Source of the DNA: a virus | IMG/VR virus record: IMGVR_UViG_3300028393_000022 | Length of the DNA: 64,000 nucleotides | Direction: 5' to 3' (one strand) | Part shown: piece by piece, positions 36,501-62,582 of the stretch | How positions within the stretch are numbered: position 1 is the first letter of the stretch | How the letters are laid out: each line of letters begins with the position of its first letter | Program-made: the position numbers and the translations under genes | Notes under the pieces: model-generated | Seen by the model: only the letters and a program-made list of their open reading frames with translations | What the model was told of the DNA's origin: nothing | The model's database searches: none

Positions 36501-39500
36501 GAAATACTGGCATTGATTCTATTCCCAACTAACATAGATTGCACATTGGCAAATGCAACAGCATTAGGCGATATTATTTCTATAAACTTTAATCCATTAG
36601 CTGTTGGATCTGCAATATAGCTAGCAACTTGATAACTGCTTAATCTTCTATTATTGTTAGGTAATGTTAATTTATTCTTTACCCAGAAATAATAAACATT
36701 CTCAAAGGAACCAGTGACATTGTTAAACACTTGTTTAACAGAAATAATACTATTATCGGGATACTTAGGTTGACCGCTGATACCTTTTGTTAGTCCGTTA
36801 TTTGTGTCAGCTACTGCGGCCCACTCACTAGGTAACATATCAGATTTTACCCATTCATAGACATCAATAGTAGCTCCTGGGAACATACGTCCCCAATTAT
36901 TTTTTCTAAATATTTCGTTGCCTTGCTCGTACCACATATATTTGGCAGTACTTAAATCCCACCACAGGTCTCCAATATGTTCATCTAACCAGTTTGTCTC
37001 ATTATTAACAATAGTGCTGGCTAAACCGATAGAGTAGGTAGCAGGATCAAATGCTGCTTTATATTTTAATTCTTGTTCAGCAATGCCGGCAATCTTGCCT
37101 TTTACAGGATCAACAACATCGAGGTAATTGACAATTTCTTCTTTTAAAGTATCAATTAGTGCAACACGGTTAATTGATGAAACATCGACTGTATCTTCTT
37201 GTTCTCTTAATATTTTCCAACTACCGCTAGTAATATCAATCTTATTGAAGATATATAATTTAGATTCGTCAGATATCAAAGGCGATGCCGAGTATTGTTG
37301 ACTAGTCGGAGCTCCAATAATAACTTCATGATTAGTTGCTACAACAGAATTTCCATATCTGCTGCCTTTTAAAATAACGGTATCATTTAATTCATCTGCC
37401 TGGATAAAATAATTTCCTATTTTATTATAAACATAAACTGTTCCTGCATCTTCAACAGATTCAAAAAACTTGGTAGAATCGCCGTCAAATGTTGTTTGTC
37501 CAACATTGATAGATGCATCATAAACTTGTTTTTTACTTCTATTTTTACCCAATGCACTAATTGCAATAGTAAGTTCGTCTTTACTGATAGAAATAGAATG
37601 ACCAAATTTTAAATCATTGGTAGGTAAGGGGTTGCTAATAATTTGATTTAAGACATACATTCCGTTAGTCAATGTGTAAATTACAACTTTTCCGTACGGG
37701 TCATTAGTAGACTTTGTTTCAGGGGCTGATATTAGTAAATATTTTTTTGACTCTGAAAAAGCAATATCGTATCCAAATTTAGAATTAACACCGAACGGTG
37801 AGTTAATTGTTTGCGTATGTGTTAAATTAATATCAAATAATTGAACAACGCCTGTTGATGTAAAATACCCAGGCGCACTAATTGCAATAGTTGTGCCGTT
37901 GAGTGTTCCTGCAACTTTATATCCCCATTGGTTTCCAGCAGACAATGAAATAGATGAAGTTGATACAACCAGAGGTACTGTATTGGTTAAAGTAAATCCC
38001 TTGACAGTTGCAGTAGTCACATTAGTAATTGTATTTGTTATAGCAGTGATTTTATAAGCATACACTGATCCAGGGCCATTAAAGGATGCGGTACCAGGGG
38101 CACTAACTAGCATTGTAGTGGAGCCGGTGGATACTTGATTAATATATATAGAATGGCCAAATCTAGAATTAGCAGCAGTATCGGCAGTCGTACCGTAAGG
38201 ATTTACCAATACTAAATCAACATTAATTACACCAAATTCTTCGTCTCTACTGTTTATCTTAACTAAACCTTCCTTGACAAAAGATTTAATTTCTCCAGAT
38301 CCCGTACTTAAAATTACGGTACCAGTTCCGATTGTTGTAGACCTAACAAAAGTAGCGTCCGGCGCACCGGCAATATATAATTTTTTATTAATGTCGTACT
38401 GTAATGAATATCCAAATTGTGTAGAGCTAGTACTACTACAATATTGTTTACTGCTGCTATTTAAAATGTAATCGTATTGTCGAGACCACACATTATTAAT
38501 TTTATTGTAGACTTTAATTCGGCCCCAATTAAATGCATTCTCAAGTCTCCATCCCGGAGCTGATACCAACATAACATCACTGTTATCATTGGCATATATA
38601 GAAGAACCAAATTGTTGTCCTAGGGAGGCGGTAGACGCTGCATTAACGGTAGGTGAATAATTTTTAATTTTTTCATAAACTTGCCATTTACCATCAATAC
38701 CAGTATCAATCCAGACTTTGTCTCCCGAGTTTAATTTCAACAAATCTGTAATAGTGCTCAGTTCATCGAGATTGTTGTACCTGGCGCTGCTAAATGTGAA
38801 TAAAGAACCATAGTTTAATAGTTCTGCATTTTCAATAGTAGTTAGAGTAGAAGATACTGTAAATTGATTTAATTCAGATATTGAAGTAACAACATATACT
38901 CCATTAACTTGTTGATTAAATCTGACTATAGAAACAATATCTCCTGCTGTTAGATTATGATAACTGTCTGTAACAAATGTAATTTCGCTACCAGGGGCGC
39001 TAACATAAACACCTGTTATCTCTGCTAATTGTTTTACGTATCTATAAACTGTCCAATCACCATTTTCTAAAAAGCCTAACCATATGGTATCGCCTTCTTT
39101 TAAGATATGGTTATTTGCAATATCTAATAAACTATTTTTATTATAAGCCGTTGATGTAATGTCATCTAATCGAACATATCCTGCGGTTGTTAATTTTAAA
39201 TTATTATCTTCCCATGTTCCTTTATAGGAATCAAATGTATTTGAAGGAACATAATTATTAGGTGTTAGTAGCAAAGAAGCCGATGTTACATAGTTAACCA
39301 AAGGAGCAGTAACAGTCGGAATGCTGTCAGTAAATTTAACGATATAGGGATTTTCTAGAGCAGTGCCCTCTGTTAAAGGAAATTCAATTTCATTAAATGA
39401 GTTGTAGCTCCCATACTGACCTACTCTAAATGCCCATTCTTCTTTAAAGGTAATATTCCCTTTATTTGTATTTTGAGCAGCCTTTGATAACTTATCAAGT

Positions 39501-42500
39501 GCGTTTTTTGTTCCTTTATCTTTAATAAATCCTTGATAGAATTTATACTGACTTATAGAATTAGTAAAAATATTATCCAGGTATGTCCTAGGAGTATATC
39601 CTGTAAGATGTTGTGCCAACCGCTGCTGACCAAAATCAAAGTTATCAATATCTAAACTGTAAAAGTCTTCAAATTGATTAATTTTATAATCAAAGTTAGG
39701 CAGCAATTGGGGGATTGGCTTGCTCGCCAATTGATCCCACTCTGTAAAATTAAATGTAGGGCTTGCAGATACTTTGGCCAACGCTTCGTAATATCTGCCA
39801 TTATATCGAACAACTGTGCCGGGTAAGTAAGTTCCAGAAGCGGACCAATCTATGATTTTAACATTATCAAAAACAAATCCCGGACTAAACAAATCACCAT
39901 TCCAATTTTTAGTCCTAAATCCTGATAATTTAATTCTTTGCTGTTTATATCCAGTCTCTACATCATATATAATGTCGTTAAACATTGTATAATTTTTAAA
40001 GACCATGGCATGCTCTTTTTGTACAGAATTAATAGTAGCAAAGAAAAGACCTTCATTGGGATCAGTAGTTTTAATTATGCAAACTGTATCTTCCCTAGAC
40101 ATAGTAAAGCTATTAATAGGATATGGTTTTCCATCTGCTTTTAAAAGACTGTATTCGTACTTGCTGGAATTAATATCATCTGCTACTGAATTAGGGAAAC
40201 TATATTTGATATAATTTGCAAAAGGACTTAATGTAATTAAATTGTTTTCGGCCCAATTTTGAGTTGTCCAATACAAAAATTCTTTACCTGTAAATTTCCA
40301 ATTTAACATTTCGTTTAAATCGGTACTGAACTCATCAAATATAAATCCTTCAGCTTCAAGGTACGCACCGTATCCAACAATTATATTATATACTTCTTGT
40401 ACTGTGGATAATTCAGTGCCGTAAGGGATTTGTGTTATAGTTTTCTCAAAAGAAGATGCTAGTTTTGCTTCGGCGCCTCCTACAATAGGTAATCCGGGCA
40501 AAGGAACATACAATGTAGGATCAAATGTGGATTCAGCAACATGTCCTACTTTAACTCTGTAAAACTTATTGCCGTATCTAATAAGTTGACCTTGCTTATA
40601 ATATCTAGTAGTGGGTCCAGATGCACTTGTTAAATCAACAGAACTTAATCCAGAATTTCCATTGTTAACAACATTTGACCAATCTGAAAATTCTTCTGAT
40701 ACGCCGCCCACTTTTACTGCACCTGTTGCGGCATTTGAGATAGGGTTAAAAATTTTAAAATATGGATTAGCTACATCATATCCTTTAATTACAAAATTAC
40801 CGTTAGATCTTTGAACAATGATACCAGAAATTCTAGCAGTTTTAATAGGATTGCTTACATTTAATATTAAAGAATAATCTTCAGGAGGCAAAACTACACC
40901 AGGACTAGTTGATGCAGGATCAATAGAATCAATTGTAATTTGTAATTTTTCCTTGCTAGCAAACCCGCCTAGCTTGTGGAAAAGATTAGATTCTAAGTAA
41001 GTAAGATCTTGTTTTAATACATTGATATAGTTTTGATCTTTCTGATTACCTTTCTCAATAACATAAGATCCATAACCTGCAATCATAGAATCTGCATCGC
41101 CTTCAATGACCAGCTTTCTAGGATCTAAATAAAGACCAGTGGTAGTGTAAGTTACCTGGCCCAATGGGTTAATGGTTGTTCTACTGGTGTCATATAACGT
41201 AGAACAAAAATTTGTAGGGTCTAATAAGGCGGCAGTAGATATCAATGCAAACGGCCAAGCACTACTATTTCTCCATGCATTTTCAGCCGGACCCATATCA
41301 CCAAATTTCCAACTGGCAAGTTTGTCTTGATAGTTACTTGCCGATACTAAAAACAACTCTGGGCTCTTTAAATTCCCCAATGCATCTACAGGAATAATAT
41401 TACTTAACCCTTGACGAACATAATTTGTATCAAAAGTGCCAGTACTTGCGTTATAACCAAGTTCAATATCTGACCACATGACCGTATTGGCAGAGGTATA
41501 TGGAGCCGGTCCATATATATTCTCCCACCAAATTGGTTTGGTTGTTAAACCTAACATTTCCCACGGTCTAATATCAGGACGCTGGGTATCATAAAAATAT
41601 CTAAATAAATTCTTAGAGGTACCAGTCACTTCGCTATTAAACCATTTGTCGATACTACCTTTAAAATTCCAGGTCTTTGAATTACCAGAATCAAATGTAG
41701 AATTGGTCTTTACATCAACGTTGTTTATACCTGCCCATCTAGAAAAATCACTAATAAGGATGCTGTTTAAATCTTCAACAGAATATTTTGTATTTCTAAA
41801 TGCGCCAGGTTGTATTGCAATAATATCAAATAATTTACTGTTGTATTGAACTTTAATATTATTAAAAATTCGTTGTTCAAATTCAAGAATAATAGCATCT
41901 CTATAATCGCCGTAGGCTTTTATGATACTACCGTCATGCCCTTTAATACATAATGTAGGAACAACATAAGAGGTATCTGTATAAATTTCAGGTACTGTTG
42001 CAGGATATAGTCCCAATTTACTAGGGGTAGGAGGTACATAACTTCCCAGTGTATTTGGATAACAATTAATAGATATAACGTCATTAACTAATAAATCTGT
42101 TAAGAAAATAACCGATCCATTAATATAACTAAATGTATAATCTACTCCATATGATTGCTGGACATTGTTCAAATAAACATTAACTGCTTTAAAACTTAAT
42201 CTAGTCAGATCAAATTCAAATCCTATAGGATATTCAACATTGTTAATATCTCGAACAGTAAATGTTCTAACTGTTTTGTTTTGACCATAACCTAACATAT
42301 CAGAACGCTGATACATTGATTTAATATCTTTGGCTCGATTTAAATTAGTTAAAATAGAATCCACTGCATCAATGGGAGATGCTTGGTTGTCAATTGCAAT
42401 TAATGATCTTAAAAAATTCATTTTAAACTGACTATAATGATCGCCAGCTTGTCTAATTGCATCAACTAAATTATGTTCTTTCTTGCCAAGAAATATTTGT

Positions 42501-44485
42501 GCAAACGAAATAGGATTTGCATTAACTATTAATCGAGTCCCGTTCTTAGTATAGTTAACTAAATCTCTTAAATTTGAACCAGTATATGCAGGAATCTTAC
42601 TTACCATTGATGACAAATGATCACCTAGTTCACTAAGTGTCATACTAGAAAATGTGCCATTCAATGGGTTATTAGTTAAACCAATAGGCGTTTCATAATA
42701 ACCATTTAGATTAGGTTGTTGTGTTGTAAAAACTTTTATTACTATGACATCATTAATATATAATGTATCAGTAGTAATTGTAATTTCAGCCGAAGTTGCA
42801 CTAATAATAGATGACAGTTTTTTACCGTTTTTATAAACTTCCACGGTCAGATCAGTAGTAACAATGGGTTTATCTAAACAAGTTAAAGTCAGTGTATTTG
42901 TTTGTTCAGCAATTGTCTGAATCTCAATAATAGGAATCTGATAGTCAGATGCCTCTACCCATACATTAATTAATTCATTATCTAATTTTAAATAGGTAAC
43001 TGCTGCGGATATAGTAGTGCTTGCATTATTAGAAATAACAGAGATAGTGTCTGTCATAAAATAATTTTTAAATAGATAACTTCCTAATCCAATGCTATTT
43101 TGGTATTTTAAAGAAAATTTCAAAACTTTATCATATACAGTACCCAATTCATAACCAAATAATTTAGTACCCGTAAAGTTATTAATTTCTAAAGATTTAG
43201 TAAAACTTGTTCCGTCAGCCGTGAATAAATCAAATAACGGAGGCTGATTTACTTTGTCGTGTTGTTGTGCGTATATCCATTTAATATTAGTAGCATCAAA
43301 GTACCAGCTTGTCCCATAAAATTCGTTTCCAGAATTGATACTAATTGAATTATGATCAGAAGGAATCGCATCTGCTGCAGGAATAAGACGTAATAATGGG
43401 ATTTCTCCTGCGGAGTTTATATCTATCTCAAAAATTCTACCCCTTACAGCATCATTTAGATCGGCATTAAAAATTACCCTATTTCCTTTTTGCAACAATG
43501 TACCGTCAACATAGAATCCAGGACTGCCGTCAACTTCAACAAATGCATCTCTAACAGAATTATCAATAACATCTATATTTTGATTACCAACTTTTCCAAA
43601 ATTATATAATTGTAAATTTGGTCTAAATTCAACAATAGGACGTTTTGCTCGAGCCCCCAATGGATATAATGCAGGAACATTATTAATATTAGCAGTAGCT
43701 TCGATAATATCTCTATGGAACCATCGATTGTATCGAGACCATGGATTTAGATCTTTACTAGCTCGATTAATAGTAATATAATCGGGTTCAACGGGCAATC
43801 GCTTGTCTCCACCTGCATCAAATGGATAATTATCAAAATTAATACTATCAAATGTTTCGTCAAAACCTGTTGCTATTCTTGCCGACGAAGTTAATAATGA
43901 AAAATCAATTAGTTTAATAGATTGTCCGACTCCCTCTACAATATATTCTACATTTGATATAGAAATTTTCATACCGTTGCTTAAAGGATAACCGTTGCTC
44001 ATAATATAAGACGGAGATCCAATAATATCATTTATATTGTCAGACTTTAAAAAAATAACGGTAGGGCCGACAGGAAGCCAATAATAGCTAGTATAGTTGA
44101 CTAGTTTATCCCAGTCAATTAACGGATCATAAGAATAAAATTTAGATTTTAATAAGGTGTCGAGATTATTTGTTTTGCTACCTTGTATTCCCAATTCATT
44201 AATTAAATCATTATATGCAACAGCATCAGTAATATTTCCTAATTGATCTTTAAAAACTATTGCTGGCTCTAAACTATAATTTTTTCTCAAAGGGGATGAA
44301 TCTTCGAGATAAGAATCCACCGCTGGACGATAATTGGGGGTAATTTTTGAACCAATATATCCATCAACCCGCTCAACTTGAGGCGTTTGAATAAGTTGAT
44401 CGATAGTGCTAGATAAAAACTTAGAGTTTTTATCTGTCCTTATATACTCTGGTAATAAATTAACTGATTTCTTAATATCCGCCAT
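30512..44485 (-). CDS. Giant (4657 aa) baseplate wedge/virion structural protein
   Basis: Uninterrupted ORF after the gp6-like gene. FG-GAP-like repeats (FGYSL, FGHSI, YGNSV), NPGSGY repeats and VKPYHTKIR. Confidence 0.7.
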   Translation of the reverse strand: MADIKKSVNLLPEYIRTDKNSKFLSSTIDQLIQTPQVERVDGYIGSKITPNYRPAVDSYLEDSSPLRKNYSLEPAIVFKDQLGNITDAVAYNDLINELGIQGSKTNNLDTLLKSKFYSYDPLIDWDKLVNYTSYYWLPVGPTVIFLKSDNINDIIGSPSYIMSNGYPLSNGMKISISNVEYIVEGVGQSIKLIDFSLLTSSARIATGFDETFDSINFDNYPFDAGGDKRLPVEPDYITINRASKDLNPWSRYNRWFHRDIIEATANINNVPALYPLGARAKRPIVEFRPNLQLYNFGKVGNQNIDVIDNSVRDAFVEVDGSPGFYVDGTLLQKGNRVIFNADLNDAVRGRIFEIDINSAGEIPLLRLIPAADAIPSDHNSISINSGNEFYGTSWYFDATNIKWIYAQQHDKVNQPPLFDLFTADGTSFTKSLEINNFTGTKLFGYELGTVYDKVLKFSLKYQNSIGLGSYLFKNYFMTDTISVISNNASTTISAAVTYLKLDNELINVWVEASDYQIPIIEIQTIAEQTNTLTLTCLDKPIVTTDLTVEVYKNGKKLSSIISATSAEITITTDTLYINDVIVIKVFTTQQPNLNGYYETPIGLTNNPLNGTFSSMTLSELGDHLSSMVSKIPAYTGSNLRDLVNYTKNGTRLIVNANPISFAQIFLGKKEHNLVDAIRQAGDHYSQFKMNFLRSLIAIDNQASPIDAVDSILTNLNRAKDIKSMYQRSDMLGYGQNKTVRTFTVRDINNVEYPIGFEFDLTRLSFKAVNVYLNNVQQSYGVDYTFSYINGSVIFLTDLLVNDVISINCYPNTLGSYVPPTPSKLGLYPATVPEIYTDTSYVVPTLCIKGHDGSIIKAYGDYRDAIILEFEQRIFNNIKVQYNSKLFDIIAIQPGAFRNTKYSVEDLNSILISDFSRWAGINNVDVKTNSTFDSGNSKTWNFKGSIDKWFNSEVTGTSKNLFRYFYDTQRPDIRPWEMLGLTTKPIWWENIYGPAPYTSANTVMWSDIELGYNASTGTFDTNYVRQGLSNIIPVDALGNLKSPELFLVSASNYQDKLASWKFGDMGPAENAWRNSSAWPFALISTAALLDPTNFCSTLYDTSRTTINPLGQVTYTTTGLYLDPRKLVIEGDADSMIAGYGSYVIEKGNQKDQNYINVLKQDLTYLESNLFHKLGGFASKEKLQITIDSIDPASTSPGVVLPPEDYSLILNVSNPIKTARISGIIVQRSNGNFVIKGYDVANPYFKIFNPISNAATGAVKVGGVSEEFSDWSNVVNNGNSGLSSVDLTSASGPTTRYYKQGQLIRYGNKFYRVKVGHVAESTFDPTLYVPLPGLPIVGGAEAKLASSFEKTITQIPYGTELSTVQEVYNIIVGYGAYLEAEGFIFDEFSTDLNEMLNWKFTGKEFLYWTTQNWAENNLITLSPFANYIKYSFPNSVADDINSSKYEYSLLKADGKPYPINSFTMSREDTVCIIKTTDPNEGLFFATINSVQKEHAMVFKNYTMFNDIIYDVETGYKQQRIKLSGFRTKNWNGDLFSPGFVFDNVKIIDWSASGTYLPGTVVRYNGRYYEALAKVSASPTFNFTEWDQLASKPIPQLLPNFDYKINQFEDFYSLDIDNFDFGQQRLAQHLTGYTPRTYLDNIFTNSISQYKFYQGFIKDKGTKNALDKLSKAAQNTNKGNITFKEEWAFRVGQYGSYNSFNEIEFPLTEGTALENPYIVKFTDSIPTVTAPLVNYVTSASLLLTPNNYVPSNTFDSYKGTWEDNNLKLTTAGYVRLDDITSTAYNKNSLLDIANNHILKEGDTIWLGFLENGDWTVYRYVKQLAEITGVYVSAPGSEITFVTDSYHNLTAGDIVSIVRFNQQVNGVYVVTSISELNQFTVSSTLTTIENAELLNYGSLFTFSSARYNNLDELSTITDLLKLNSGDKVWIDTGIDGKWQVYEKIKNYSPTVNAASTASLGQQFGSSIYANDNSDVMLVSAPGWRLENAFNWGRIKVYNKINNVWSRQYDYILNSSSKQYCSSTSSTQFGYSLQYDINKKLYIAGAPDATFVRSTTIGTGTVILSTGSGEIKSFVKEGLVKINSRDEEFGVINVDLVLVNPYGTTADTAANSRFGHSIYINQVSTGSTTMLVSAPGTASFNGPGSVYAYKITAITNTITNVTTATVKGFTLTNTVPLVVSTSSISLSAGNQWGYKVAGTLNGTTIAISAPGYFTSTGVVQLFDINLTHTQTINSPFGVNSKFGYDIAFSESKKYLLISAPETKSTNDPYGKVVIYTLTNGMYVLNQIISNPLPTNDLKFGHSISISKDELTIAISALGKNRSKKQVYDASINVGQTTFDGDSTKFFESVEDAGTVYVYNKIGNYFIQADELNDTVILKGSRYGNSVVATNHEVIIGAPTSQQYSASPLISDESKLYIFNKIDITSGSWKILREQEDTVDVSSINRVALIDTLKEEIVNYLDVVDPVKGKIAGIAEQELKYKAAFDPATYSIGLASTIVNNETNWLDEHIGDLWWDLSTAKYMWYEQGNEIFRKNNWGRMFPGATIDVYEWVKSDMLPSEWAAVADTNNGLTKGISGQPKYPDNSIISVKQVFNNVTGSFENVYYFWVKNKLTLPNNNRRLSSYQVASYIADPTANGLKFIEIISPNAVAFANVQSMLVGNRINASISTDANSIIPKHTEWLLLNEGDHTNVPNTLLEKKLFDSLLGHDSLGNVVPSTNLTYRNRYGIGIRPQQTFFKDRLAALRNLISFINSVFVKNRIVGNYSFENLNKKEELPALYSYEYDQIVEDLDALNEIYTVRYVQAELECYAENGKVKNVIITNPGFGYSIAPKINIISSSLTPAEITTTIDTQGRVISVTIINPGSGYTDINVQTTVRPHTVIVQTNSDINGKWSKHTFDYVFRTWIKTQTQKYDTTKFWTAVDWVSSEFDSYKSLTYTISNLSELGSLTSITDGEYVKVKNIGDGRYAILKKVNGLGNYIPLYDIIYRELGTIQLLDTLWDYTKGKYLYDAASIEETPYNQIPDQELYYILLALKNNIFINDLKVNWNLFFFAAVKFALTEQKLLDWAFKTSFINVSNNIGSLDQPSVYKLNNESYFEEYIKEVKPYHTKIRSYTSIYSHVDGQTSEGFNLNITDFDLPAYVNTLTNSLTTVNVGDPILMNYPWKNWNDNYKLFVGSIEVGYTGSGYSERPTVVITTAPGDSGSGAEAEAYIRNGKVYKVIVTNPGSGYTATPLATIVGGGSVIDVARVSVIMDNINTRKNLIGIKFDRTSSSGDLIDLTVTDEFLCDGTTNKFTLTWLASPDKKTITPLVDGKLVYSADYTIEYYQIKVEKDGINIPAAFPRNSWEGERMIDHRYKYFNTITPNNLPDNIRHYAKFVFLNQIPNFEQVFKITYNKNIDLYNAVDRINKMYNPTDLMPGKELPLLMDGIEYSGTQIQGLKFEQTPNWDSTGTGFDSAPWGDTLSSYTKTQLLQDLYFPTQAFSVASIDGIFPGQSIGFAGTSTYNQIFKPGTVVTGVNRPLPERKDGIVYISTLDRVDTQIFYAWSTGTAKGSTITIETKDPFRTAISKGDRVKIYGVNSLAGYGIETIYFVRGSRPVVNTYTDIPSVSVIIAPPDFPGGIQATAVPLFDGNTATIIQVTNPGMGYSIPPNMYLSGPLKSYGSIAGSLDPGYNQFAYVEAATTNQIQFKSQFTLSSTATVLPLMPLSGRFPYFDLLSENVSYVNSKNKLIDHTVTTFDSSTHLVVNILATVEQTARASVYLNSTEVLSTSTDTVWYSVTNSVDGYNRSIVSVQNATGAILSGTVDVKLYDFTEIEFYSYNTEYSNLDSLISGSYIQDNFNGYKAEDIRIDGNNFLNEIDSHAPEECVPGYVRDSLGINVYTVGTPSSPLVQSGVFTAITNVPTRAKLTYVPATPAGFLVYANGITYTRVDNEGAFSSSTQYAIFGNEIIVPAQLAITKIGYTFITVGSDVKMDSSFIAVDISTIEGTGTAMVSSLLMIDDVKSVYVLANGHPVPLLLPGYNYGYTLEPVSLVNNRASVKIYGLNSGSYTFEAWFFDAVYPVFNRVYEQFNTVSSSSSSITSMILAMPPTIIEPLSEEIIVEKITSTGRYRMLPPWATYYKIRSGITTFAIDPKNSRPSTYSLDNVKVYLNGKELRPGYDFAVNVINETITILVPTIRTGDAIAITPMVDYEYTVAGDTLYFSSPISDATIKVTTFTNHDNMLIRTERFKGNYSRKFTLTLPAINESYTWVTVNNKPLIGGYDYMLLDDYKTIELSEFIDVGLTDDIVIVTVNPPTFDDKILGFRLFNDMFNRQDFHRISKYFSTALTEPLTYDSDRVFVEDGDHLLEPNPGLNLPGVVYIDGERIEYLEKDGNVLSQLRRSTLGTGPALFSDIGTKVIDQSVRQSIPTVYRNLVQHIPTSTATTYIISTIGNTATFSVNTTTSVGAGIILSNLANAVDQVEVYYGGRRLRKTSLEVHDKSISYYNSPESTIVYPPEFSINMPKTVLVTEMVNGGHIQYGSGWVFHETTETMKIQPGWIMQDASGHRYIVVYSGHNDLFNGWGVGFADAITIAWPLTFIEPTKITLNIAEEIKAGTRITIVQRQGEFWEDTASTSLLSSTGTQATFLRFRTADLPNIYFYGGDNMLTEESNALTDENGEPLQGY

Positions 44486-56652: not shown

Positions 56653-57666
56653 ATGAACCTTTTTAAGAAGGTAGCAGTCTTTACAGATCTGCACGTCGGC
56701 CTTAAATCAAATTCAACGACCCATTTAAGAGACTGTGAAGAATTTGTAGATTGGTTTATCGAACAAGCAAAAGAAAATAACTGCGAGACTTGCATTTTTA
56801 TGGGTGATTGGAGTCACAATAGGAATAGTCTCAATCTTGTCACTCTCAATACATCACTGACTTTATTAGAAAAGTTAGGTCAAGGGTTTGAAAAGTTCTA
56901 TTGGTTTCCAGGTAATCACGATTTGTTCTATAAAGACAAGCGTGATATCCATAGCAGTGCGTTCGGACGTCATGTCCCCGGTGTGACTGTTGTCGAGGGT
57001 GTAACAACTATTGACGGAGTCACGCTTGTTCCGTGGCTAGTAGGAGATGAGTGGAAATCGATGAAGACACTTGACAGCAAATATGTGTTTGGGCATTTTG
57101 AATTGCCCTTATTCTACATGAACGCCATGGTACAAATGCCCGACCACGGTGAGCTTAAAGCTGCTGACTTTGGAAAACCAGAGTACGTATTCAGCGGACA
57201 CTTTCATAAACGACAAAGCAAAGGCAACGTACATTACATTGGTAATGCATTTCCACATAACTTTGCCGATACATGGGATGATGATCGCGGCATGATGACA
57301 CTCGAGTGGGGTGGTAAGCCAGAATATATCAATTGGGATAATGCTCCTAAGTACAGAACTATTAAACTTAGCGAATTAATTGATAAAAAAGATGAAATTA
57401 TGAAGTCAAAGATGCACTTTAAAGTGAATCTAGACATTGATATTAGCTATGAAGAAGCAAACTTTATTAAAGAAACGTTTGTTGCTGACTATGACATCCG
57501 TGAAATTAGTCTCATTCAGGATAAAACTAACCTGGACGGAACTATTGATGATAACCCAGATGCTACATTTGAAAGTGTTGATCAGATTGTATCCGAACAA
57601 TTGATCAACATTGAATCTGAACAGTTTGATAAAAACGTGCTACTTACCATCTATAATAATCTATGA
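56653..57666 (+). CDS. gp47: Recombination nuclease subunit (gp47/SbcD/Mre11)
   Basis: TDLH, MGD, GNHD, GHFE and SGHFH. TTGACT-17bp-TAAACT at 56605-56633 upstream. Confidence 0.92.
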   Translation: MNLFKKVAVFTDLHVGLKSNSTTHLRDCEEFVDWFIEQAKENNCETCIFMGDWSHNRNSLNLVTLNTSLTLLEKLGQGFEKFYWFPGNHDLFYKDKRDIHSSAFGRHVPGVTVVEGVTTIDGVTLVPWLVGDEWKSMKTLDSKYVFGHFELPLFYMNAMVQMPDHGELKAADFGKPEYVFSGHFHKRQSKGNVHYIGNAFPHNFADTWDDDRGMMTLEWGGKPEYINWDNAPKYRTIKLSELIDKKDEIMKSKMHFKVNLDIDISYEEANFIKETFVADYDIREISLIQDKTNLDGTIDDNPDATFESVDQIVSEQLINIESEQFDKNVLLTIYNNL

Positions 57667-59447
57667 GCTTTAACATCAAGACAATCACAGTTAAGAACTT
57701 TCTTAGCGTGGGAAATCAGACACAGGCTGTTGATTTTGACAAGCAACATCTAACATTGGTACTGGGATCTAACTTAGATCTAGGCGGTGACGACACAGGA
57801 TCGCGCAATGGTACCGGCAAAACTACAATGATCAATGCATTGAGTTATGCATTGTACGGGCAAGCCCTTACTAATATTAAAAAAGAAAATTTAATTAACA
57901 AGACCAATGGCAAATCCATGTTGGTCACAGTTGAGTTTGAGAAGAATGGCGTCATTTATCGTATCGAGCGGGGTCGCAAACCTAATGTTCTTAAATTATA
58001 TGTCAACGATCAGGAGTTAAAATCTAAAGATTCAGAGGATGATAGCCAAGGCGATAGCCGTGAAACACAGAAAGCAATCGAGCAGATGCTGGAAATGAGT
58101 CACACTATGTTCAAGCACTTGGTTGCACTGAACACTTACACTGAGCCGTTCCTATCTATGAAGGCTGCGGAGCAGCGTGAAGTTATTGAACAACTATTGG
58201 GTATTACTTTACTAAGTGAAAAAGCAGAAGCACTTAAAACATTAATCAAAGAAAGCAAAGATTCTATACAGATTGAGACAGTTAGAATTGATGCTGTTAA
58301 AGGTGCAAATGAAAATGTGCAAAAAAGTATCGATAGTTTGCACTTAAAAAGTTCAGCATGGGAAAATAAGCACGACAGCGAACTAGAAAATCTAGGTCGT
58401 GCCATTGTTAATCTTGAAGCTGTTGATATTGAAGCAGAGTTATCAGCACATATTGCATTGCAACAGTGGACAGAGAACAATAATAAGCTACGCGACCTAA
58501 CTAGACAACGTGCAACATTGGAATCTGCTGTAGGGCAAGCTGAAAAGACTCTTAAGAAATATAAAACAGAGTTAGAAAGCCTTGGAAATAAAAAGTGTCA
58601 TGCTTGCGAGCAAGAACTTCACGACCACAAGCACGAAGAAATGACTGCTACTGCTACGCAGCATTACGACGAAGCCTATGAATACTGGCAGAAGATGCGG
58701 GCACAACTTAAACAGATAACAGAAGAAATTGCTGCTGTTGGTGAGTTGCCACACAAACCTTCTACTTACTATGATACAGAAGCAGAAGCGTTGGGTCATA
58801 AAAATAATCTTGCCAGTTTAGAAAGATCATTAGACGCAAAGGTTGTAGAAGCCAATCCTTATAATGAGCAGATCGAAGAATTGAAAAAGACTGCGATCCA
58901 AGAAATCAACTGGGGCACTGTTAATTCACTAACTAAGCTAAAAGATCATCAGGAATTCTTGCACAAACTGCTGACAAACAAAGATAGTTTTATCCGTAAA
59001 AAGATTATCGATCAAAACTTGAGCTACTTGAACAAGAGATTGAGCTACTATATTGATAAACTGGGTTTGCCGCATCGTGTTATTTTTCAAAATGATCTAA
59101 GTGTTGAGATTACGCAGTTAGGACAAGATTTAGATTTTGATAATTTAAGTCGTGGTGAGAGAAACAGATTAATTTTATCTATGAGTTTTGCTTTCCGAGA
59201 TGTTTGGGAAGGATTATATCAAAGCATGAACTTATTGTTCATCGATGAGCTTGTAGATGCTGGCATGGATACAGCGGGGGTGGAATCTGCACTGGCTGTA
59301 TTGAAAAAAATGGCCAGAGAGAGAAATAAGAATATATACTTAATATCGCATAAAGACGAATTAGTGGGCAGAGTTAATAATGTACTTAGAGTTATTAAAG
59401 AAAACGGTTTTACCAGTTACTCAAACGATGTAGACTATGTCGAATGA
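57663..59447 (+). CDS. gp46: Recombination ATPase subunit (gp46/SbcC/Rad50)
   Basis: NGTGKT, Zn-hook CHAC, LSRGE, LLFIDE and ISH. Confidence 0.94.
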   Translation: MSFNIKTITVKNFLSVGNQTQAVDFDKQHLTLVLGSNLDLGGDDTGSRNGTGKTTMINALSYALYGQALTNIKKENLINKTNGKSMLVTVEFEKNGVIYRIERGRKPNVLKLYVNDQELKSKDSEDDSQGDSRETQKAIEQMLEMSHTMFKHLVALNTYTEPFLSMKAAEQREVIEQLLGITLLSEKAEALKTLIKESKDSIQIETVRIDAVKGANENVQKSIDSLHLKSSAWENKHDSELENLGRAIVNLEAVDIEAELSAHIALQQWTENNNKLRDLTRQRATLESAVGQAEKTLKKYKTELESLGNKKCHACEQELHDHKHEEMTATATQHYDEAYEYWQKMRAQLKQITEEIAAVGELPHKPSTYYDTEAEALGHKNNLASLERSLDAKVVEANPYNEQIEELKKTAIQEINWGTVNSLTKLKDHQEFLHKLLTNKDSFIRKKIIDQNLSYLNKRLSYYIDKLGLPHRVIFQNDLSVEITQLGQDLDFDNLSRGERNRLILSMSFAFRDVWEGLYQSMNLLFIDELVDAGMDTAGVESALAVLKKMARERNKNIYLISHKDELVGRVNNVLRVIKENGFTSYSNDVDYVE

Positions 59448-59742
59448 AGAGATAAACAAGTATAAGGAACTGTATAGTCAACTGATTAGTGAATTAGTTG
59501 GCTTGCATAATACCCATGCTTCGTTTGTTAGGAATGTTGGTAGAGATACCGGCAATGCTTGTAGGAGACATCTGAGAGCAATATCAAATATTGCCACTGA
59601 ATTAAAAAGACAGGGGCAAAAAGTTGGAAAAGAAAGCACAGCTAATAGAAGAGCTGAGAAGAAAGCTGCAATAGCAGAACAAGCAAGGCTTAACGCTATA
59701 CCAAAAAAACGAGGCCGTAAGCCAAAAGGAACTATAAAATGA
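59437..59742 (+). CDS. Basic Hc1-like protein with an AT-hook-like tail
   Basis: Similar to the downstream Hc1-like protein; C-terminal KKRGRKPK. Confidence 0.55.
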   Translation: MSNEEINKYKELYSQLISELVGLHNTHASFVRNVGRDTGNACRRHLRAISNIATELKRQGQKVGKESTANRRAEKKAAIAEQARLNAIPKKRGRKPKGTIK

Positions 59743-59936
59743 ATGATACTAATACACAATTACAAGCAACCTTTGCAGAATTCTTAGCTGAAGATGCAAA
59801 ATTTACAGGTGGTAACTCTGCCGCTGGCACACGCTCACGCAAGGCTCTAGCAGAGTTAAGCAAGTTAGTTAAAGCCCGCCGTAACGAAATCACTGCCGAG
59901 AAGAATGCTCGCAAGGAAGCCAAGGCAACAAAATAA
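59739..59936 (+). CDS. Histone H1-like (Hc1 family) protein
   Basis: KFTGGNSAAGTRSRKALAELSKLVKARRNEI. Confidence 0.7.
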   Translation: MNDTNTQLQATFAEFLAEDAKFTGGNSAAGTRSRKALAELSKLVKARRNEITAEKNARKEAKATK

Positions 59937-59939
59937 TCA

Positions 59940-60368
59940 ATGACTTGGACCTACAAAGGCTCTATAGTTAACGAACTTCCTGAAGATTGTATCGGTTATG
60001 TTTACTGCATAACCAATATAACCTCAGGACGCCAATACATTGGCAAAAAATTAGCAAAATTCTCTAAAACGACCTACAAGACGATCACGTTGAAGAACGG
60101 CACAAAAAAGAAAAAGAAGATTCGAAGCAAAATCGACAGCGACTGGCAGGAATATTACGGGTCCAGTCCTAATTTAACAGCAGATATCAACACCCTAGGC
60201 AAAGACAACTTCTCTCGCGAAATACTATACTATTGTAAATCCAAAGCAGAAACATCTTACATTGAGGCCCGCGAACAATTCGACCGCAAAGTATTAGAAT
60301 CCGACGATTACTATAACGGACATATCCAAGTCCGTGTCCATGGCTCTCACATAAAATCTAAAATTTAA
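59940..60368 (+). CDS. Single-domain GIY-YIG nuclease
   Basis: GYVYCITN...QYIGKK, YYGSS, FSREIL, E...YYN. Confidence 0.85.
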   Translation: MTWTYKGSIVNELPEDCIGYVYCITNITSGRQYIGKKLAKFSKTTYKTITLKNGTKKKKKIRSKIDSDWQEYYGSSPNLTADINTLGKDNFSREILYYCKSKAETSYIEAREQFDRKVLESDDYYNGHIQVRVHGSHIKSKI

Positions 60369-60374
60369 TCTAAC

Positions 60375-60760
60375 ACCAAAGGTTGGCGGGCCAGTTTGTA
60401 ATACCGCTGTGGAAAAACTGGGGAATAACCAGACACGTAACATGATGATGCACTCCCGTGGGTATATCCCACCAGCCTGAAAAATTGGTCGCGAGTCTAA
60501 GAGCACGAACCCTACGCTCAACGCATTGTCATAGTATGAATGTTAGCATACGAAAAACCGTGCTATAAACACTTAGACACTAGGAACGAGGTCTAAGACG
60601 CATTATGCGAGTCGATGTAGGTTGGGAAAGATCAGAGCCCATTAGCATTACGGTAAAAACACCTATTTCCAATGTCTCGGCCTGTGATAACTCACATGAA
60701 GACAAAAAGCGGAACCGCTCAAAACGGTTCCGTCTGACCAAAATAATCTACATGAATTTA
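60375..60760 (+). ncRNA. Candidate large structured non-coding RNA (family not recognised)
   Basis: Dense nested and long-range complementary segments in a relatively GC-rich intergenic region (see findings). Confidence 0.5.
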
Positions 60761-60834
60761 AAAAGCTTCGCTGAAACAATTGCTTCAAGTAAGAGCGTAA
60801 GCGATTACGAAGAAGCAAATGAGCGTCAGCTCAT

Positions 60835-60842
60835 TATAAATA
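60835..60842 (+). promoter_or_regulatory. T4-type late promoter TATAAATA
   Basis: Exact match, 30 nt upstream of ATG 60872. The TAAATA core also precedes late genes at 2118, 21047, and on the minus strand at 27969, 48050, 48520 and 55609. Confidence 0.75.
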
Positions 60843-60871
60843 AAAGAAACAACTTCTTAGGAAATCCCTTT

Positions 60872-61489
60872 ATGCGTATCACTGAATTAATAATTGAAAA
60901 CAATCAAATAGATGAAATATCTCTTAAAGGTATCGGTCAAGGTCTAAGCAAGGCTGCTGATGCAGTTGGAGGTGCTGTTGGTGGCGTGCAAGGACAATGG
61001 GCTGGAATGCAAAATGTATATAATCAAAAAAGAGATAGAGTGGCGGCTGTAGCTCAAAGAAATGCAGAACAAGCAGGTGGTTATAAAAAGCCCGCCGCAC
61101 CAGTTGTAGCACCTACTCCAATAGCCGCTGTTCCTCCTACTGCACCAGCAGCTAATGCGGTGCCTAACAGTGGAACAATGTCAATTAATGGCAACAAATT
61201 AGATCCTAAGAATCCAGCTGATGCTAAAATAATTGCTCAGATACAGGCACAAGATGCACATAATGCTACCCAACAGGCTGCTCCACAACCAAGTGCAACT
61301 GCGGCACCGAGTGCCCCTCCTCGTCGTCTTGTAGGTCCAAAGGGAGTAGCCGCTGTTGAAAAAGCATACAAATCTTTACCAGATCCGCAACGTAGTCAAG
61401 CAAGACAAAGCATTGCAGCGATTGACGCAGGAGTTAAAGAAAGTTTGACTGTTGGTTATAAAAGTAATTTTCTAGGTCTAGTAATTTAA
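60872..61489 (+). CDS. Ala/Pro/Gln-rich late protein (possible internal head protein)
   Basis: Start reassigned to ATG 60872 (MRITELIIENNQIDE) after the late promoter and SD AGGA. Confidence 0.65.
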   Translation: MRITELIIENNQIDEISLKGIGQGLSKAADAVGGAVGGVQGQWAGMQNVYNQKRDRVAAVAQRNAEQAGGYKKPAAPVVAPTPIAAVPPTAPAANAVPNSGTMSINGNKLDPKNPADAKIIAQIQAQDAHNATQQAAPQPSATAAPSAPPRRLVGPKGVAAVEKAYKSLPDPQRSQARQSIAAIDAGVKESLTVGYKSNFLGLVI

Positions 61490-61716
61490 AAGAACGGCAT
61501 CTGCGTTTCTTTGGTCATTTCTAAATTACCTTCAATAATCTTAGTAAGCAGTTCTCTATCTTCAGGCGATAATAAAAATGCCTCTGAGAAACTTAGACCA
61601 CCTCTCATATACCAAGCGAATCTAAAAAGTTCTTCTTTTAAGGCTTTTGTATCAGTCTCGTATTCTTTTATGAGCTTATTGATACCATTAGTATCAAGAT
61701 ACAAAAGCCTTATACG
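61486..61716 (-). CDS. Tail assembly chaperone C-terminal extension (gpT-like), reached by -1 frameshift
   Basis: Only a TTG start with no SD; in the -1 frame from T_TTT_TTC at 61722-61716. Confidence 0.65.
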   Translation of the reverse strand, partial: RIRLLYLDTNGINKLIKEYETDTKALKEELFRFAWYMRGGLSFSEAFLLSPEDRELLTKIIEGNLEMTKETQMPFF

Positions 61717-62582
61717 AAAAAAGTTGCAGGATCAAATACTAATGGAACGTCAATTGTTTCACCAGTGATGCCATTTGCCCTCATTTCGTCAGTAACTTGA
61801 ACAGTAATTGGTTTTAAAGAATTTATTTCTCGCAATTGTTCAATGTGATTTTGAACAATATTAAAAATATCTTTGTCGGCATTGTCAATAAATTCTTTAA
61901 TGTGCCTTGGATCTTCAGTGCCGCCGTTAGTTGAATCTATTTTGTAAATGCTTTTCTCAACTATACCAATGGTAACATCTGATAGCTTGCTAAAACTTTC
62001 TTTAAATGCAGCAATTTTGTCAGCTTCACTCATTGCAGCATCGTTGGCAATTTGCAAAATCTTTTGAGTTTCAAATGTTTTTACAGCACTTTCACTGATC
62101 TGCTTGTAGTTCAAAGGACGAACATACACAGTTAGATCTTGACTTACCTGTACAGCACTTTCCCAGGTAATGTTTTGCATTAACGAATCCATTATGGTAC
62201 GTAGATCCGTTGTGTATTCCATTTCAATATCTTCTCCAAACGTAATAGGAGTTGTCATCTTTTCACCATAGGTTGCCAATCGAATTGCAATTAACAACAC
62301 ATCTAAATCGATACTGGGCACCATCCATGCATTTTTAATATTTGGAATACAATGTTGGATAACATCTACAACGGCCTGCCCGCTCATTACAGCATCTGGA
62401 ACTTTAAGCATTAGTTCGTCTTTGGCAGTCATGGAAAACACGGGTAGTTCTCCATTTTCAGACATTTCTAAACTGCCTGCTGGCCAAAATTGTCCATTGC
62501 TGGGCAAACGAATGTAGATTTTTGGTTGCCTCATGAAAGAAGCAAGCGGGTTTGGTTGTATGTTGGTTAGGTTAGCTACCAT
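61710..62582 (-). CDS. Baseplate hub assembly/tail assembly chaperone (gp26-like)
   Basis: LPS.G...MTAKDE...D.D.LLIAIRLATYGE; adjacent to the tape measure gene. Confidence 0.7.
   Translation of the reverse strand: MVANLTNIQPNPLASFMRQPKIYIRLPSNGQFWPAGSLEMSENGELPVFSMTAKDELMLKVPDAVMSGQAVVDVIQHCIPNIKNAWMVPSIDLDVLLIAIRLATYGEKMTTPITFGEDIEMEYTTDLRTIMDSLMQNITWESAVQVSQDLTVYVRPLNYKQISESAVKTFETQKILQIANDAAMSEADKIAAFKESFSKLSDVTIGIVEKSIYKIDSTNGGTEDPRHIKEFIDNADKDIFNIVQNHIEQLREINSLKPITVQVTDEMRANGITGETIDVPLVFDPATFFV

What the first reader, a model, noticed from the sequence alone, without database searches (positions are those of the whole stretch)
60375..60760. Unrecognised ~400-nt multi-domain structured element directly downstream of a bare GIY-YIG nuclease
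Seen: this is the largest non-coding gap in a compact window and it is full of pairings. AGGTTGG 60380-86 pairs with CCAGCCT 60472-78 and encloses GTGGG-TATAT-CCCAC. AGCACG 60502-07 pairs with CGTGCT 60559-64 and encloses GTATG/CATAC. CTTAGAC 60572-78 pairs with GTCTAAG 60591-97. CGCA-TTA-TGCG forms a small hairpin. Long-range ATGTAG 60615-20/CTACAT 60748-53 and TCAGA 60632-36/TCTGA 60733-37 enclose TGTGA-TAAC-TCACA and CGGAACCG 60710-17/CGGTTCCG 60725-32. GTCTAAGA and GCGAGTC each occur twice. It does not resemble tRNA, tmRNA, RNase P or group I/II intron cores. Inference: a large phage ncRNA, possibly forming a ribonucleoprotein with the adjacent 142-aa nuclease, which lacks its own DNA-recognition domain. 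A replication-origin transcript is the alternative.
Basis: partly seen in the sequence, partly recalled or inferred. Interest (0 to 1): 0.75.

Follow-up and report, generated by a model that had tools for sequence, protein, structure and literature searches.

The report
Twin-box structured phage RNA gene
The gene-free stretch behind a small nuclease gene of this uncultured T4-like phage encodes a real, intricately folded non-coding RNA of about 390-470 bases; it is an uncatalogued relative of the orphan Polynucleobacter-1 motif, it carries the same short word twice, and its job is still unknown.

Summary
The observation largely holds. Window 60379-60757 (+ strand) is a structured RNA, and a conserved hairpin tail extends it to about 60835. 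No Rfam family matches it, even at E<=10. Its invariant core was found in at least 120 IMG/VR phage stretches. In 90-92 distinct relatives, seven of the tested helices keep pairing through compensatory changes, with many G-U and few A-C pairs, so the + strand is the functional one.

Close relatives carry a different body at the same site: 24 of 24 tested begin with Rfam Polynucleobacter-1 (RF01718). Both bodies share a 3' module: box 1, a hairpin, GTCTGAC, box 2. The two boxes hold the same 7-10 nt word and change together. No complementary partner was found.

The nuclease-RNP idea is not supported. The link to the GIY-YIG gene coincides with a fixed gene order (gp46, GIY, RNA, gp26). Cultured phages have the nuclease without the RNA. 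One contig has the RNA without the nuclease. Inserts can separate the two.

Function is unknown. My best guess is an RNA acting in its own right whose twin boxes are read by a two-site partner.

This scan has described the same family before on other DNA (49 notes in at least 43 genomes).

The parts
59940..60368 (+). 142-aa stand-alone GIY-YIG nuclease gene (SegE-type catalytic domain only); neighbour of the RNA, not shown to be its partner
   Evidence: Pfam PF19835, 1.3e-32 over the whole profile. The AlphaFold model (pLDDT 90.9) best resembles the I-TevI catalytic domain (1mk0 and 1ln0, probability 0.93-0.96). It is a homolog of P-SSM2 PSSM2_218.
60379..60757 (+). Body of the structured RNA, from AAGGTTGGCGGG to the end of box 2
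   Evidence: Conserved from end to end in 92 distinct IMG/VR loci. Helices covary. No Rfam match.
60385..60436 (+). 5' hairpins: P1 60385-89/60404-08; P2 60409-11/60434-36, which encloses P2a 60417-20/60430-33
   Evidence: P1 is 99% canonical with GC, AU and CG types. P2 is 100% canonical with UA and AU types. Slid controls are mostly far lower.
60442..60532 (+). Long-range helix P3 60442-50/60524-32. It encloses an insert (60452-60520) that includes hairpin 60458-62/60468-72 and is found only in this window's closest relatives
   Evidence: P3 is 88% canonical with 5 of 9 pairs compensatory. The insert is absent from the family consensus. The hairpin covaries among the 5 closest relatives.
60534..60610 (+). 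P4 60534-38/60547-51; the 5' arm of the pseudoknot 60557-61; P5 60570-78/60591-97 with the invariant loop ACTAGGAACGA; P6 60598-602/60606-10
   Evidence: P4 is 94% canonical and P5 91%, each with 4 compensatory pairs. Mutual information singles out columns 60559/60647 and 60560/60646, with types GC/AU and UA/CG/GC.
60611..60666 (+). Near-invariant core GTCGAYGTAGGTTGGGAAAGRTCAGAGCCC: P7 60614-16/60631-33; P8 60617-22/60661-66; P9 60623-26/60638-41; the 3' arm of the pseudoknot 60650-54
   Evidence: The core pattern was found in at least 120 viral stretches. P7 is 100% paired with 2 of 3 pairs compensatory. P8 and P9 are invariant, because the sequences were collected with that motif.
60689..60701 (+). 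Box 1, AACTCACATGAAG (variable core 60694-60700)
   Evidence: The same word as box 2 in 43 of 46 distinct combinations.
60710..60738 (+). Hairpin P11 60710-17/60725-32, followed by the invariant GTCTGAC 60732-38
   Evidence: 98% paired, with G-U and compensatory variants. The scan flagged it as a minus-strand terminator look-alike, but no minus-strand gene reads into it.
60745..60757 (+). Box 2, AATCTACATGAAT (variable core 60750-60756). Similarity to relatives that carry the other RNA body resumes just after it
   Evidence: Its left flank is the best duplex partner of 60613-22 in 79 of 90 loci.
60764..60835 (+). Conserved tail shared by both RNA bodies: mini-hairpin AGC-TTC-GCT 60764-72; hairpin 60780-86/60812-18 with loop GAGCGTAAGCGA; hairpin P14 60818-24/60829-35
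   Evidence: 86-95% identical to loci with the other body. P14 is 92% canonical with 7 of 7 pairs compensatory. The stems of the first two hairpins change in step across loci, as seen by eye.
60835..60874 (+). T4-type late promoter TATAAATA 60835-42, AGGAAA 60859-64, and ATG 60872 of the next gene (to 61489). Not part of the RNA
   Evidence: Read directly from the sequence. In relatives TATAAATA lies about 30 nt before the first ORF after the gap.

Best explanation
Window 60379-60757, probably with the hairpin tail to about 60835, is the gene for a large pseudoknotted non-coding RNA read from the + strand. It most likely forms the 3' end of the gp47-gp46-GIY transcript.

It belongs to a widespread family of uncultured T4-like phages that has at least two interchangeable bodies. 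Only the first 140 nt of the other body is catalogued, as Rfam Polynucleobacter-1. Both bodies end in one common module: box 1, spacer, hairpin, G-T-C/G-TGAC, box 2, then a three-hairpin tail.

Inferred, not shown: the RNA acts in its own right rather than as a guide for the neighbouring nuclease. Each box sits at the end of a helix and exposes the same unpaired A-U-R-A-N-N word, and the two words are read by a single partner with two equal sites, either a dimeric protein or a nucleic acid that is not encoded nearby.
For: The RNA is real:
- No ORF is conserved in the gap in about 70 relatives.
- The full-length element is conserved in 92 distinct loci.
- Seven helices are 88-100% canonical with compensatory changes, while slid controls are mostly far lower.
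- In the 3' domain the counting tool gives 87.5% paired against 27-46% when slid, and 9 pairs changed on both sides against 4.1 in shuffles (0 of 500 shuffles reach it).
- G-U pairs are frequent and A-C pairs rare, which points to the + strand.

Family membership:
- The core motif occurs in at least 120 viral stretches.
- 24 of 24 tested loci with the other body hit RF01718 at 80-121 bits, 5-45 nt after the GIY stop.
- The shared 3' module is visible in both bodies. It is the only part that profile searches align between them, with best E 4e-6.

Twin boxes:
- 43 of 46 distinct box pairs are identical.
- 19 of 22 departures from the consensus occur in both boxes.
- Shuffled partners reach at most 23 identical pairs.

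Not a guide.
Against: - No transcript data exist for this phage or its relatives, so the RNA ends and its expression are inferred.
- Relatedness inflates covariation counts, and the core helices P8 and P9 are invariant by the way the sequences were collected.
- A purely cis role at the end of the operon would fit the position equally well.
- The RNA is adjacent to the GIY gene in all but one locus, so a functional tie cannot be excluded.
Confidence: 0.5

Rival explanations
1. Ribonucleoprotein with the adjacent GIY-YIG nuclease. The RNA supplies the target recognition that the 142-aa catalytic-domain-only protein lacks, and the boxes act as guide and self-site.
For: - The protein is a bare catalytic domain.
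- A GIY homolog ends 150-600 nt upstream of the RNA core in every locus with enough upstream DNA except L121.
- In one lineage the RNA starts at the GIY stop codon.
- The boxes behave like a programmable word.
Against: - Five cultured phages have the nuclease gene with no gap behind it.
- L121 has the RNA without the gene.
- Inserts of 270-300 nt separate the two in about 10% of loci.
- The same GIY lineage carries two unalignable bodies.
- The gene order is fixed, so adjacency may be inherited.
- The complement of the box is not enriched in 1.06 Mb of flanking DNA.
Confidence: 0.1
2. Replication-origin primer transcript, working like ColE1 RNA II. The folded RNA stays on the DNA because box 1 in the RNA anneals to the template strand opposite box 2. 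This needs only that the two boxes be identical. The tail hairpins on the displaced strand then load helicase or primase.
For: - The boxes covary by identity and no complementary partner is found.
- The element lies in a non-coding position between an early operon and late genes.
Against: - The local GC skew follows gene direction only.
- Nothing ties T4-like origins to such an RNA.
- About 330 nt of conserved pseudoknotted structure upstream of the boxes is unexplained by priming alone.
- All support is by analogy.
Confidence: 0.1
3. A cis-acting end of the operon. The structured 3' UTR stabilises, terminates or processes the gp47-gp46-GIY transcript and insulates it from the late promoter or from the converging gp26 gene.
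For: - The element always lies at the 3' end of a + strand gene block.
- It is followed by TATAAATA or by a converging gene.
- The hairpin tail is conserved.
Against: - 390-470 nt with at least 10 helices, pseudoknots and long invariant unpaired runs is far more than a terminator or a stabiliser needs.
- L121 has the RNA after an ordinary terminator and about 300 nt of spacer, so it does not sit at the end of a gene there.
Confidence: 0.17
4. A ribozyme or an intron-like element. The boxes mark two equivalent cleavage or joining sites that release or circularise the hairpin segment between them.
For: - The size, pseudoknots and invariant unpaired nucleotides resemble large catalytic RNAs.
- The two boxes flank a 55-68 nt segment at a tightly kept distance.
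Against: - No match to group I or group II introns, RNase P or any self-cleaving family in Rfam.
- No split host gene.
- No guide complementary to the boxes.
Confidence: 0.08
5. A decayed coding region or a chance set of hairpins.
For: - The fold energy is only 1.6 sd below shuffles.
- In this window a frame is open from 60605 into the next gene.
Against: - That frame is closed in relatives.
- The frame from the box 1 ATG is not kept (36/27/29).
- Conservation shows no codon pattern.
- Helices covary.
Confidence: 0.02

Closest known systems
Polynucleobacter-1 RNA motif (Rfam RF01718; Weinberg et al. 2010, Genome Biol 11:R31, PMC2864571)
   Same: - It occupies the same genomic slot. The paper's supplement says most examples lie downstream of GOS11034 genes resembling P-SSM2 PSSM2_218, which is the GIY-YIG family found here.
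- 24 of 24 tested close relatives of this locus carry it where this window has its own body.
- The loci with that motif continue into the same box 1, hairpin, box 2 and tail module.
- Its function is unknown too.
   Different: - The Rfam model does not hit this window even at E<=10, nor 20 other loci of this body type at the gathering score.
- BLAST cannot align the two bodies.
- The Rfam family covers 141 nt, whereas the element here is 390-470 nt.
- The 2010 paper found no example in a sequenced phage.
Large ornate bacterial and phage RNAs (GOLLD RF01998, ROOL RF03087, HEARO RF02033, OLE, raiA)
   Same: Several hundred nucleotides long, with many helices, pseudoknots and invariant unpaired nucleotides. 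They are found in phages or mobile DNA, and the biochemical role was unknown when they were discovered.
   Different: None of these models matches. No tRNA genes lie nearby. The twin boxes have no counterpart in those families, as far as I know.
Guide RNAs of transposon nucleases (TnpB reRNA, IscB omega RNA)
   Same: A structured RNA is encoded directly behind or beside a small nuclease gene and carries a short variable word next to a conserved scaffold.
   Different: - The nuclease here is GIY-YIG, not RuvC or HNH.
- There are no transposon ends.
- The word occurs twice inside the element rather than once at its edge.
- Gene and RNA occur apart.
- No target was found.
Group I introns carrying GIY-YIG homing endonuclease genes (T4 td with I-TevI)
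   Same: A T4-like phage in which a GIY-YIG ORF lies next to about 400 nt of folded RNA.
   Different: No interrupted host gene. Only 3 nt separate the previous gene from the GIY start. There is no intron core match in Rfam. The GIY gene is fixed in all 76 relatives with enough sequence rather than sporadic.
ColE1 RNA II primer (from my own knowledge)
   Same: A long folded transcript in which an upstream RNA segment must match a downstream DNA segment. In the DNA this appears as a direct repeat.
   Different: This is an analogy only. No origin evidence was found here.

Membership tests
Polynucleobacter-1 RNA (RF01718) | Match to the Rfam covariance model at or above the gathering score of 37 bits | tested here: not met
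   No hit in the window at the gathering score or at E<=10 within 59400-61600. No hit at the gathering score in 20 loci of the same body type. Positive control: 24 of 24 loci of the other body score 80-121 bits.
Polynucleobacter-1 RNA (RF01718) | Position downstream of a GOS11034 / PSSM2_218-like gene | tested here: met
   The upstream 142-aa protein matches P-SSM2 PSSM2_218 by tblastn. The wording is in the paper's supplement.
Twin-box phage RNA (this scan's working name; not a published family) | 3' module: box 1, spacer, hairpin, GTSTGAC, box 2 with the same 7-10 nt word, then a hairpin tail | tested here: met
   Window 60689-60701, 60710-38, 60745-57 and 60764-60835. The module is present in 121 of 121 loci of this body type and in the Polynucleobacter-1 loci. 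Profile hits between the bodies align only this module.
Twin-box phage RNA | Body-specific core GTAGGTNGGGAAAGNNNAGAGCCC and 5' start AAGGTTGGCGGGCCAG | tested here: met
   Window 60617-60640 and 60379-60394. Shared by 92 distinct full-length relatives.
GIY-YIG nuclease superfamily (the neighbouring gene) | GIY-YIG catalytic domain with conserved Tyr, Arg, Glu and Asn positions, and the matching fold | tested here: met
   PF19835, 1.3e-32. Y22, Y33, G35, R93, E94 and N126 are invariant in 43 homologs. The model resembles the I-TevI catalytic domain.
Modular GIY-YIG homing endonucleases (Seg, I-TevI type) | A C-terminal DNA-binding domain and sporadic, mobile distribution | tested here: not met
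   The protein is 142 aa, the profile covers residues 3-129, and there is no second domain. The gene is present in all 76 gp46-anchored relatives with enough sequence.
Group I intron | Conserved catalytic core, and insertion in a host gene with flanking exons | tested here: not met
   No Rfam hit at E<=10. The flanking genes are intact and differ between loci.
RNA-guided nuclease systems (omega RNA type) | Obligate pairing of nuclease gene and RNA, and a guide complementary to a target | tested here: not met
   Gene without RNA. RNA without gene. No enriched complement of the box. Binding itself cannot be tested with these tools.

The most novel reading that the evidence does not exclude
The twin boxes are a programmable address that needs only to match itself. 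For example, box 1 in the RNA could anneal to the DNA of box 2 to anchor an R-loop that primes replication or recruits the neighbouring nickase. Alternatively, a polymerase could switch templates between the boxes. Either would be a new RNA-directed mechanism in T4-like phages.
Probability: 0.12. Interest if true: 0.9.

Novelty: new variant of a known kind. Interest (0 to 1): 0.66.

Why it matters
Large, intricately folded RNAs of unknown function are rare, and several that were solved proved to be catalysts or parts of new machines. This one is common in uncultured freshwater and marine T4-like phages. The orphan Rfam motif Polynucleobacter-1 turns out to be only the first third of one of its bodies, and the motif can now be placed firmly in phage genomes. 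The two boxes change together without any visible pairing partner, a pattern that ordinary RNA folding does not explain. They give a direct handle for experiments: change one box, both boxes, or swap them.

Tried and rejected
- Rfam at the gathering score and at E<=10: nothing.
- tRNA and tmRNA scan: none.
- BLAST of the region, and of the next gene's protein, against cultured phages: no match.
- Fold energy alone: not significant.
- Minus-strand terminator reading of 60732-60710: rejected. It is helix P11 of the + strand RNA, and no minus-strand gene feeds it.
- Pairing of box 1 with box 2 through the CAUG palindrome: broken in the variants.
- Reverse complement or a third copy of the box: none nearby, and none enriched in 1.06 Mb of flanks.
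- Wobble-tolerant duplex search: box 1 has no consistent partner. Only the left flank of box 2 finds 60613-22.
- A mini-ORF from the box 1 ATG to the TGA of GTCTGAC: the frame is not kept.
- Covariation of the boxes with the Polynucleobacter-1 hairpin: none.
- An empty site lacking the GIY-RNA cassette: all 76 gp46 relatives with enough sequence carry the gene.
- GC-skew sign of an origin: none.
- Sequence and profile search of the nuclease against solved structures: nothing. Only the fold search gave I-TevI.
- The 93-aa ORF inserted in L027: no PHROG match.
- I built no covariance model, because nhmmer and Rfam already answered the membership questions.

Full report
SETTING. The window is part of a 119-kb IMG/VR virus record. 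The genes around the finding are T4-like. They are gp47-like 56653-57666, gp46-like 57663-59447, a 101-aa ORF, a 65-aa Hc1-like protein 59739-59936, and a 142-aa GIY-YIG protein 59940-60368. After the gap come a + strand gene ending at 61489 and a gp26-like baseplate gene on the minus strand at 61710-62582. The frame that is open from ATG 60605 is probably spurious upstream of 60872. A T4-type late promoter TATAAATA (60835-42), AGGAAA (60859-64) and ATG 60872 precede the real gene. In relatives the first ORF after the gap starts about 30 nt behind TATAAATA. The gene-free stretch is therefore 60369-60871.

I collected 80 IMG/VR loci with GIY homologs of 69-96% identity. Almost all with enough sequence have an ORF-free gap of about 430-500 nt behind the gene. 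The gaps fall into two sequence types that BLAST cannot align. The type in this window is shared with L003, L015, L036 and L067, and with L014 and L027, where it follows an insert of about 270 nt. The 58 loci of the major type start with Rfam Polynucleobacter-1. All 24 that I tested score 80-121 bits, 5-45 nt after the GIY stop.

A 24-nt pattern from this window's invariant core (GTAGGTNGGGAAAGNNNAGAGCCC) then found at least 120 further viral stretches and three MAG contigs. None of 20 such loci has any Rfam hit.

STRUCTURE. I aligned 90-92 distinct full-length copies, from the GIY stop to box 2. The following helices are 88-100% canonical and keep pairing through changes on both sides, while slid controls are mostly far lower:
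- P1 60385-89/60404-08
- P2 60409-11/60434-36
- P3 60442-50/60524-32 (5 of 9 pairs compensatory)
- P4 60534-38/60547-51 (4 of 5)
- P5 60570-78/60591-97 (4 of 6)
- P7 60614-16/60631-33 (GAC/GTC, GAT/ATC, GTG/CAC, GCA/TGC)
- P14 60818-24/60829-35 (7 of 7)

P6 60598-602/60606-10 shows GC, AU, CG and UA types. P11 60710-17/60725-32 is 98% paired with G-U and compensatory variants.

For the 3' domain, the counting tool on alignment A1 gives 87.5% paired cells against 27-46% when the partner is slid. Nine pairs change on both sides against 4.1 in shuffles, and none of 500 shuffles reaches that.

Mutual information adds a pseudoknot between 60557-61 and 60650-54. P8 (GTAGGT/ACCTAT) crosses P7.

G-U pairs are common and A-C pairs rare, so the + strand folds, in the same sense as the GIY gene.

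AGGTTGG/CCAGCCT lies partly in an insert (60452-60520) found only in the closest relatives. ATGTAG/CTACAT is an alternative to P8.

THE TWIN BOXES. Box 1 (60689-60701, AACTCACATGAAG) and box 2 (60745-60757, AATCTACATGAAT) flank P11 and the invariant GTCTGAC, and lie 55-68 nt apart. All 121 loci of this body type have them.

Among 46 distinct box combinations, 43 share the same 7-nt core. Of the 22 that depart from ACATGAA, 19 show the same departure in both boxes (ACATAAT, ACATGAT, GCATAAA, ACGTGAA, GTATGAA, ACAGGAA, ACATGAG, and the unrelated ATCATCAAGT and GTTAATGTAA). In 10,000 shuffles of partners the mean number of identical pairs is 14.7 and the maximum is 23.

The Polynucleobacter-1 loci end in the same module with other words (AGATAAT, GAATAAT, GGATGAT, AGATGAAG, AGATGAG, GCATAAT). 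Profile searches between the two bodies align only this module, with best E 4e-6. Across both bodies the core reads R-N-A-U-R-A-N.

I found no partner for the boxes:
- Pairing of box 1 with box 2 breaks in the variants.
- There is no reverse complement or third copy nearby or in 1.06 Mb of flanks.
- There is no conserved reading frame.
- Only the left flank of box 2 finds a partner. It pairs with the invariant 60613-22 in 79 of 90 loci and so competes with P8.

Each box therefore looks like the end of a helix followed by the same unpaired word.

THE TAIL. Similarity to loci with the other body resumes at about 60766 and is 86-95% up to the late promoter. That stretch holds three hairpins whose stems change in step across loci. 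They are a mini-hairpin around CTTCG (60764-72), a hairpin with loop GAGCGnnAGCGA (60780-86/60812-18), and P14. This tail probably belongs to the RNA, which would then be about 460 nt long.

RELATION TO THE NUCLEASE. The protein is a catalytic GIY-YIG domain only (PF19835, 1.3e-32). Its model has pLDDT 90.9 and is nearest to the I-TevI catalytic domain.

A GIY homolog ends 150-600 nt upstream of the core in every locus with enough upstream DNA except one. But the whole neighbourhood is fixed:
- gp46 lies upstream in 90 of 91 loci, and gp26 lies downstream in 69 of 76.
- All 76 gp46-anchored relatives with enough sequence have the GIY gene.

Adjacency can therefore be inherited rather than functional. 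Several observations argue against an obligate pair:
- Melnitz, P-SSM2, P-HM2, phiN3 and ACP17 have the gene with no gap behind it.
- L121 has the RNA after a terminator and before the terminase genes, with no GIY, gp46 or gp26.
- About 10% of loci carry an insert between gene and RNA.
- The GIY lineage of this window carries either body, with break points at the stop codon and at box 2.

COMPARISON WITH WHAT IS KNOWN. Weinberg et al. (2010) described Polynucleobacter-1 as a 141-nt motif from freshwater and estuary samples. [quoted passage not shown] It is the only paper in the library that names the motif. The present element shares the slot and the 3' module with that motif but fails its covariance model. 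I therefore class it as a new variant of that known kind, not as a member. No group I intron, omega RNA, GOLLD, ROOL or HEARO features are met.

EARLIER NOTES OF THIS SCAN. I consulted these for content only after reaching the conclusions above. They describe the same family on other DNA, with 49 notes in at least 43 genomes, under the nickname 'twin-box phage RNA'. I use their nickname. My counts are my own.

VERDICT. This is a real RNA gene of an uncatalogued body type, related to Polynucleobacter-1. Its function is unknown. The twin boxes are the most interesting and least explained feature. A dedicated nuclease-guide role is unlikely.

Noticed in passing
window 59739-59936 (+): A 65-aa protein matches Pfam Hc1, the chlamydial histone H1-like protein (4e-13). 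It is conserved between gp46 and the GIY gene in many relatives.
   Followed up: partly
window 30512-44485 (-): A single 4657-aa ORF lies in the late gene block, flanked by ORFs of 1181 aa and 283 aa.
   Followed up: no
L121:6690-7170 (IMGVR_UViG_3300025671_010108): The same RNA, with boxes ATCATCAAGT, sits in a different setting. It follows a terminator and about 300 nt of spacer. It lies upstream of TATAAATA, an 82-aa ORF and the small and large terminase genes. An HNH gene lies 1.5 kb upstream, and there is no GIY, gp46 or gp26.
   Followed up: partly
L014:3430-3690 and L027:3428-3706: An insert of about 270 nt lies between the GIY stop and the RNA start. In L027 it holds a 93-aa ORF with no PHROG match. 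About eight further loci have similar extra length.
   Followed up: partly
L285, L286, L287 (MAG contigs of 72.8, 335 and 153 kb): The RNA core motif occurs on contigs filed under Crocinitomicaceae and Ca. Neomarinimicrobiota MAGs. These are probably phage contigs binned with bacteria.
   Followed up: no
loci L086-L150, 4-6 nt before the GIY ATG: In the GIY lineage that is about 55% identical to this window's protein, a conserved GGTAAGTA precedes the start codon. Its meaning is unknown; it may be the end of the upstream gene.
   Followed up: no
window 60605-60871: Only in this window does the frame of the next gene stay open back through the 3' domain of the RNA to ATG 60605. Gene callers would probably over-extend the gene to 294 aa.
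   Followed up: yes
window 60491-60502 and 60591-60613: GCGAGTCTAAGA in the lineage-specific insert repeats words from helices P5 and P6 (GTCTAAGA, GCGAGTC). The insert may have arisen by a local duplication.
   Followed up: no
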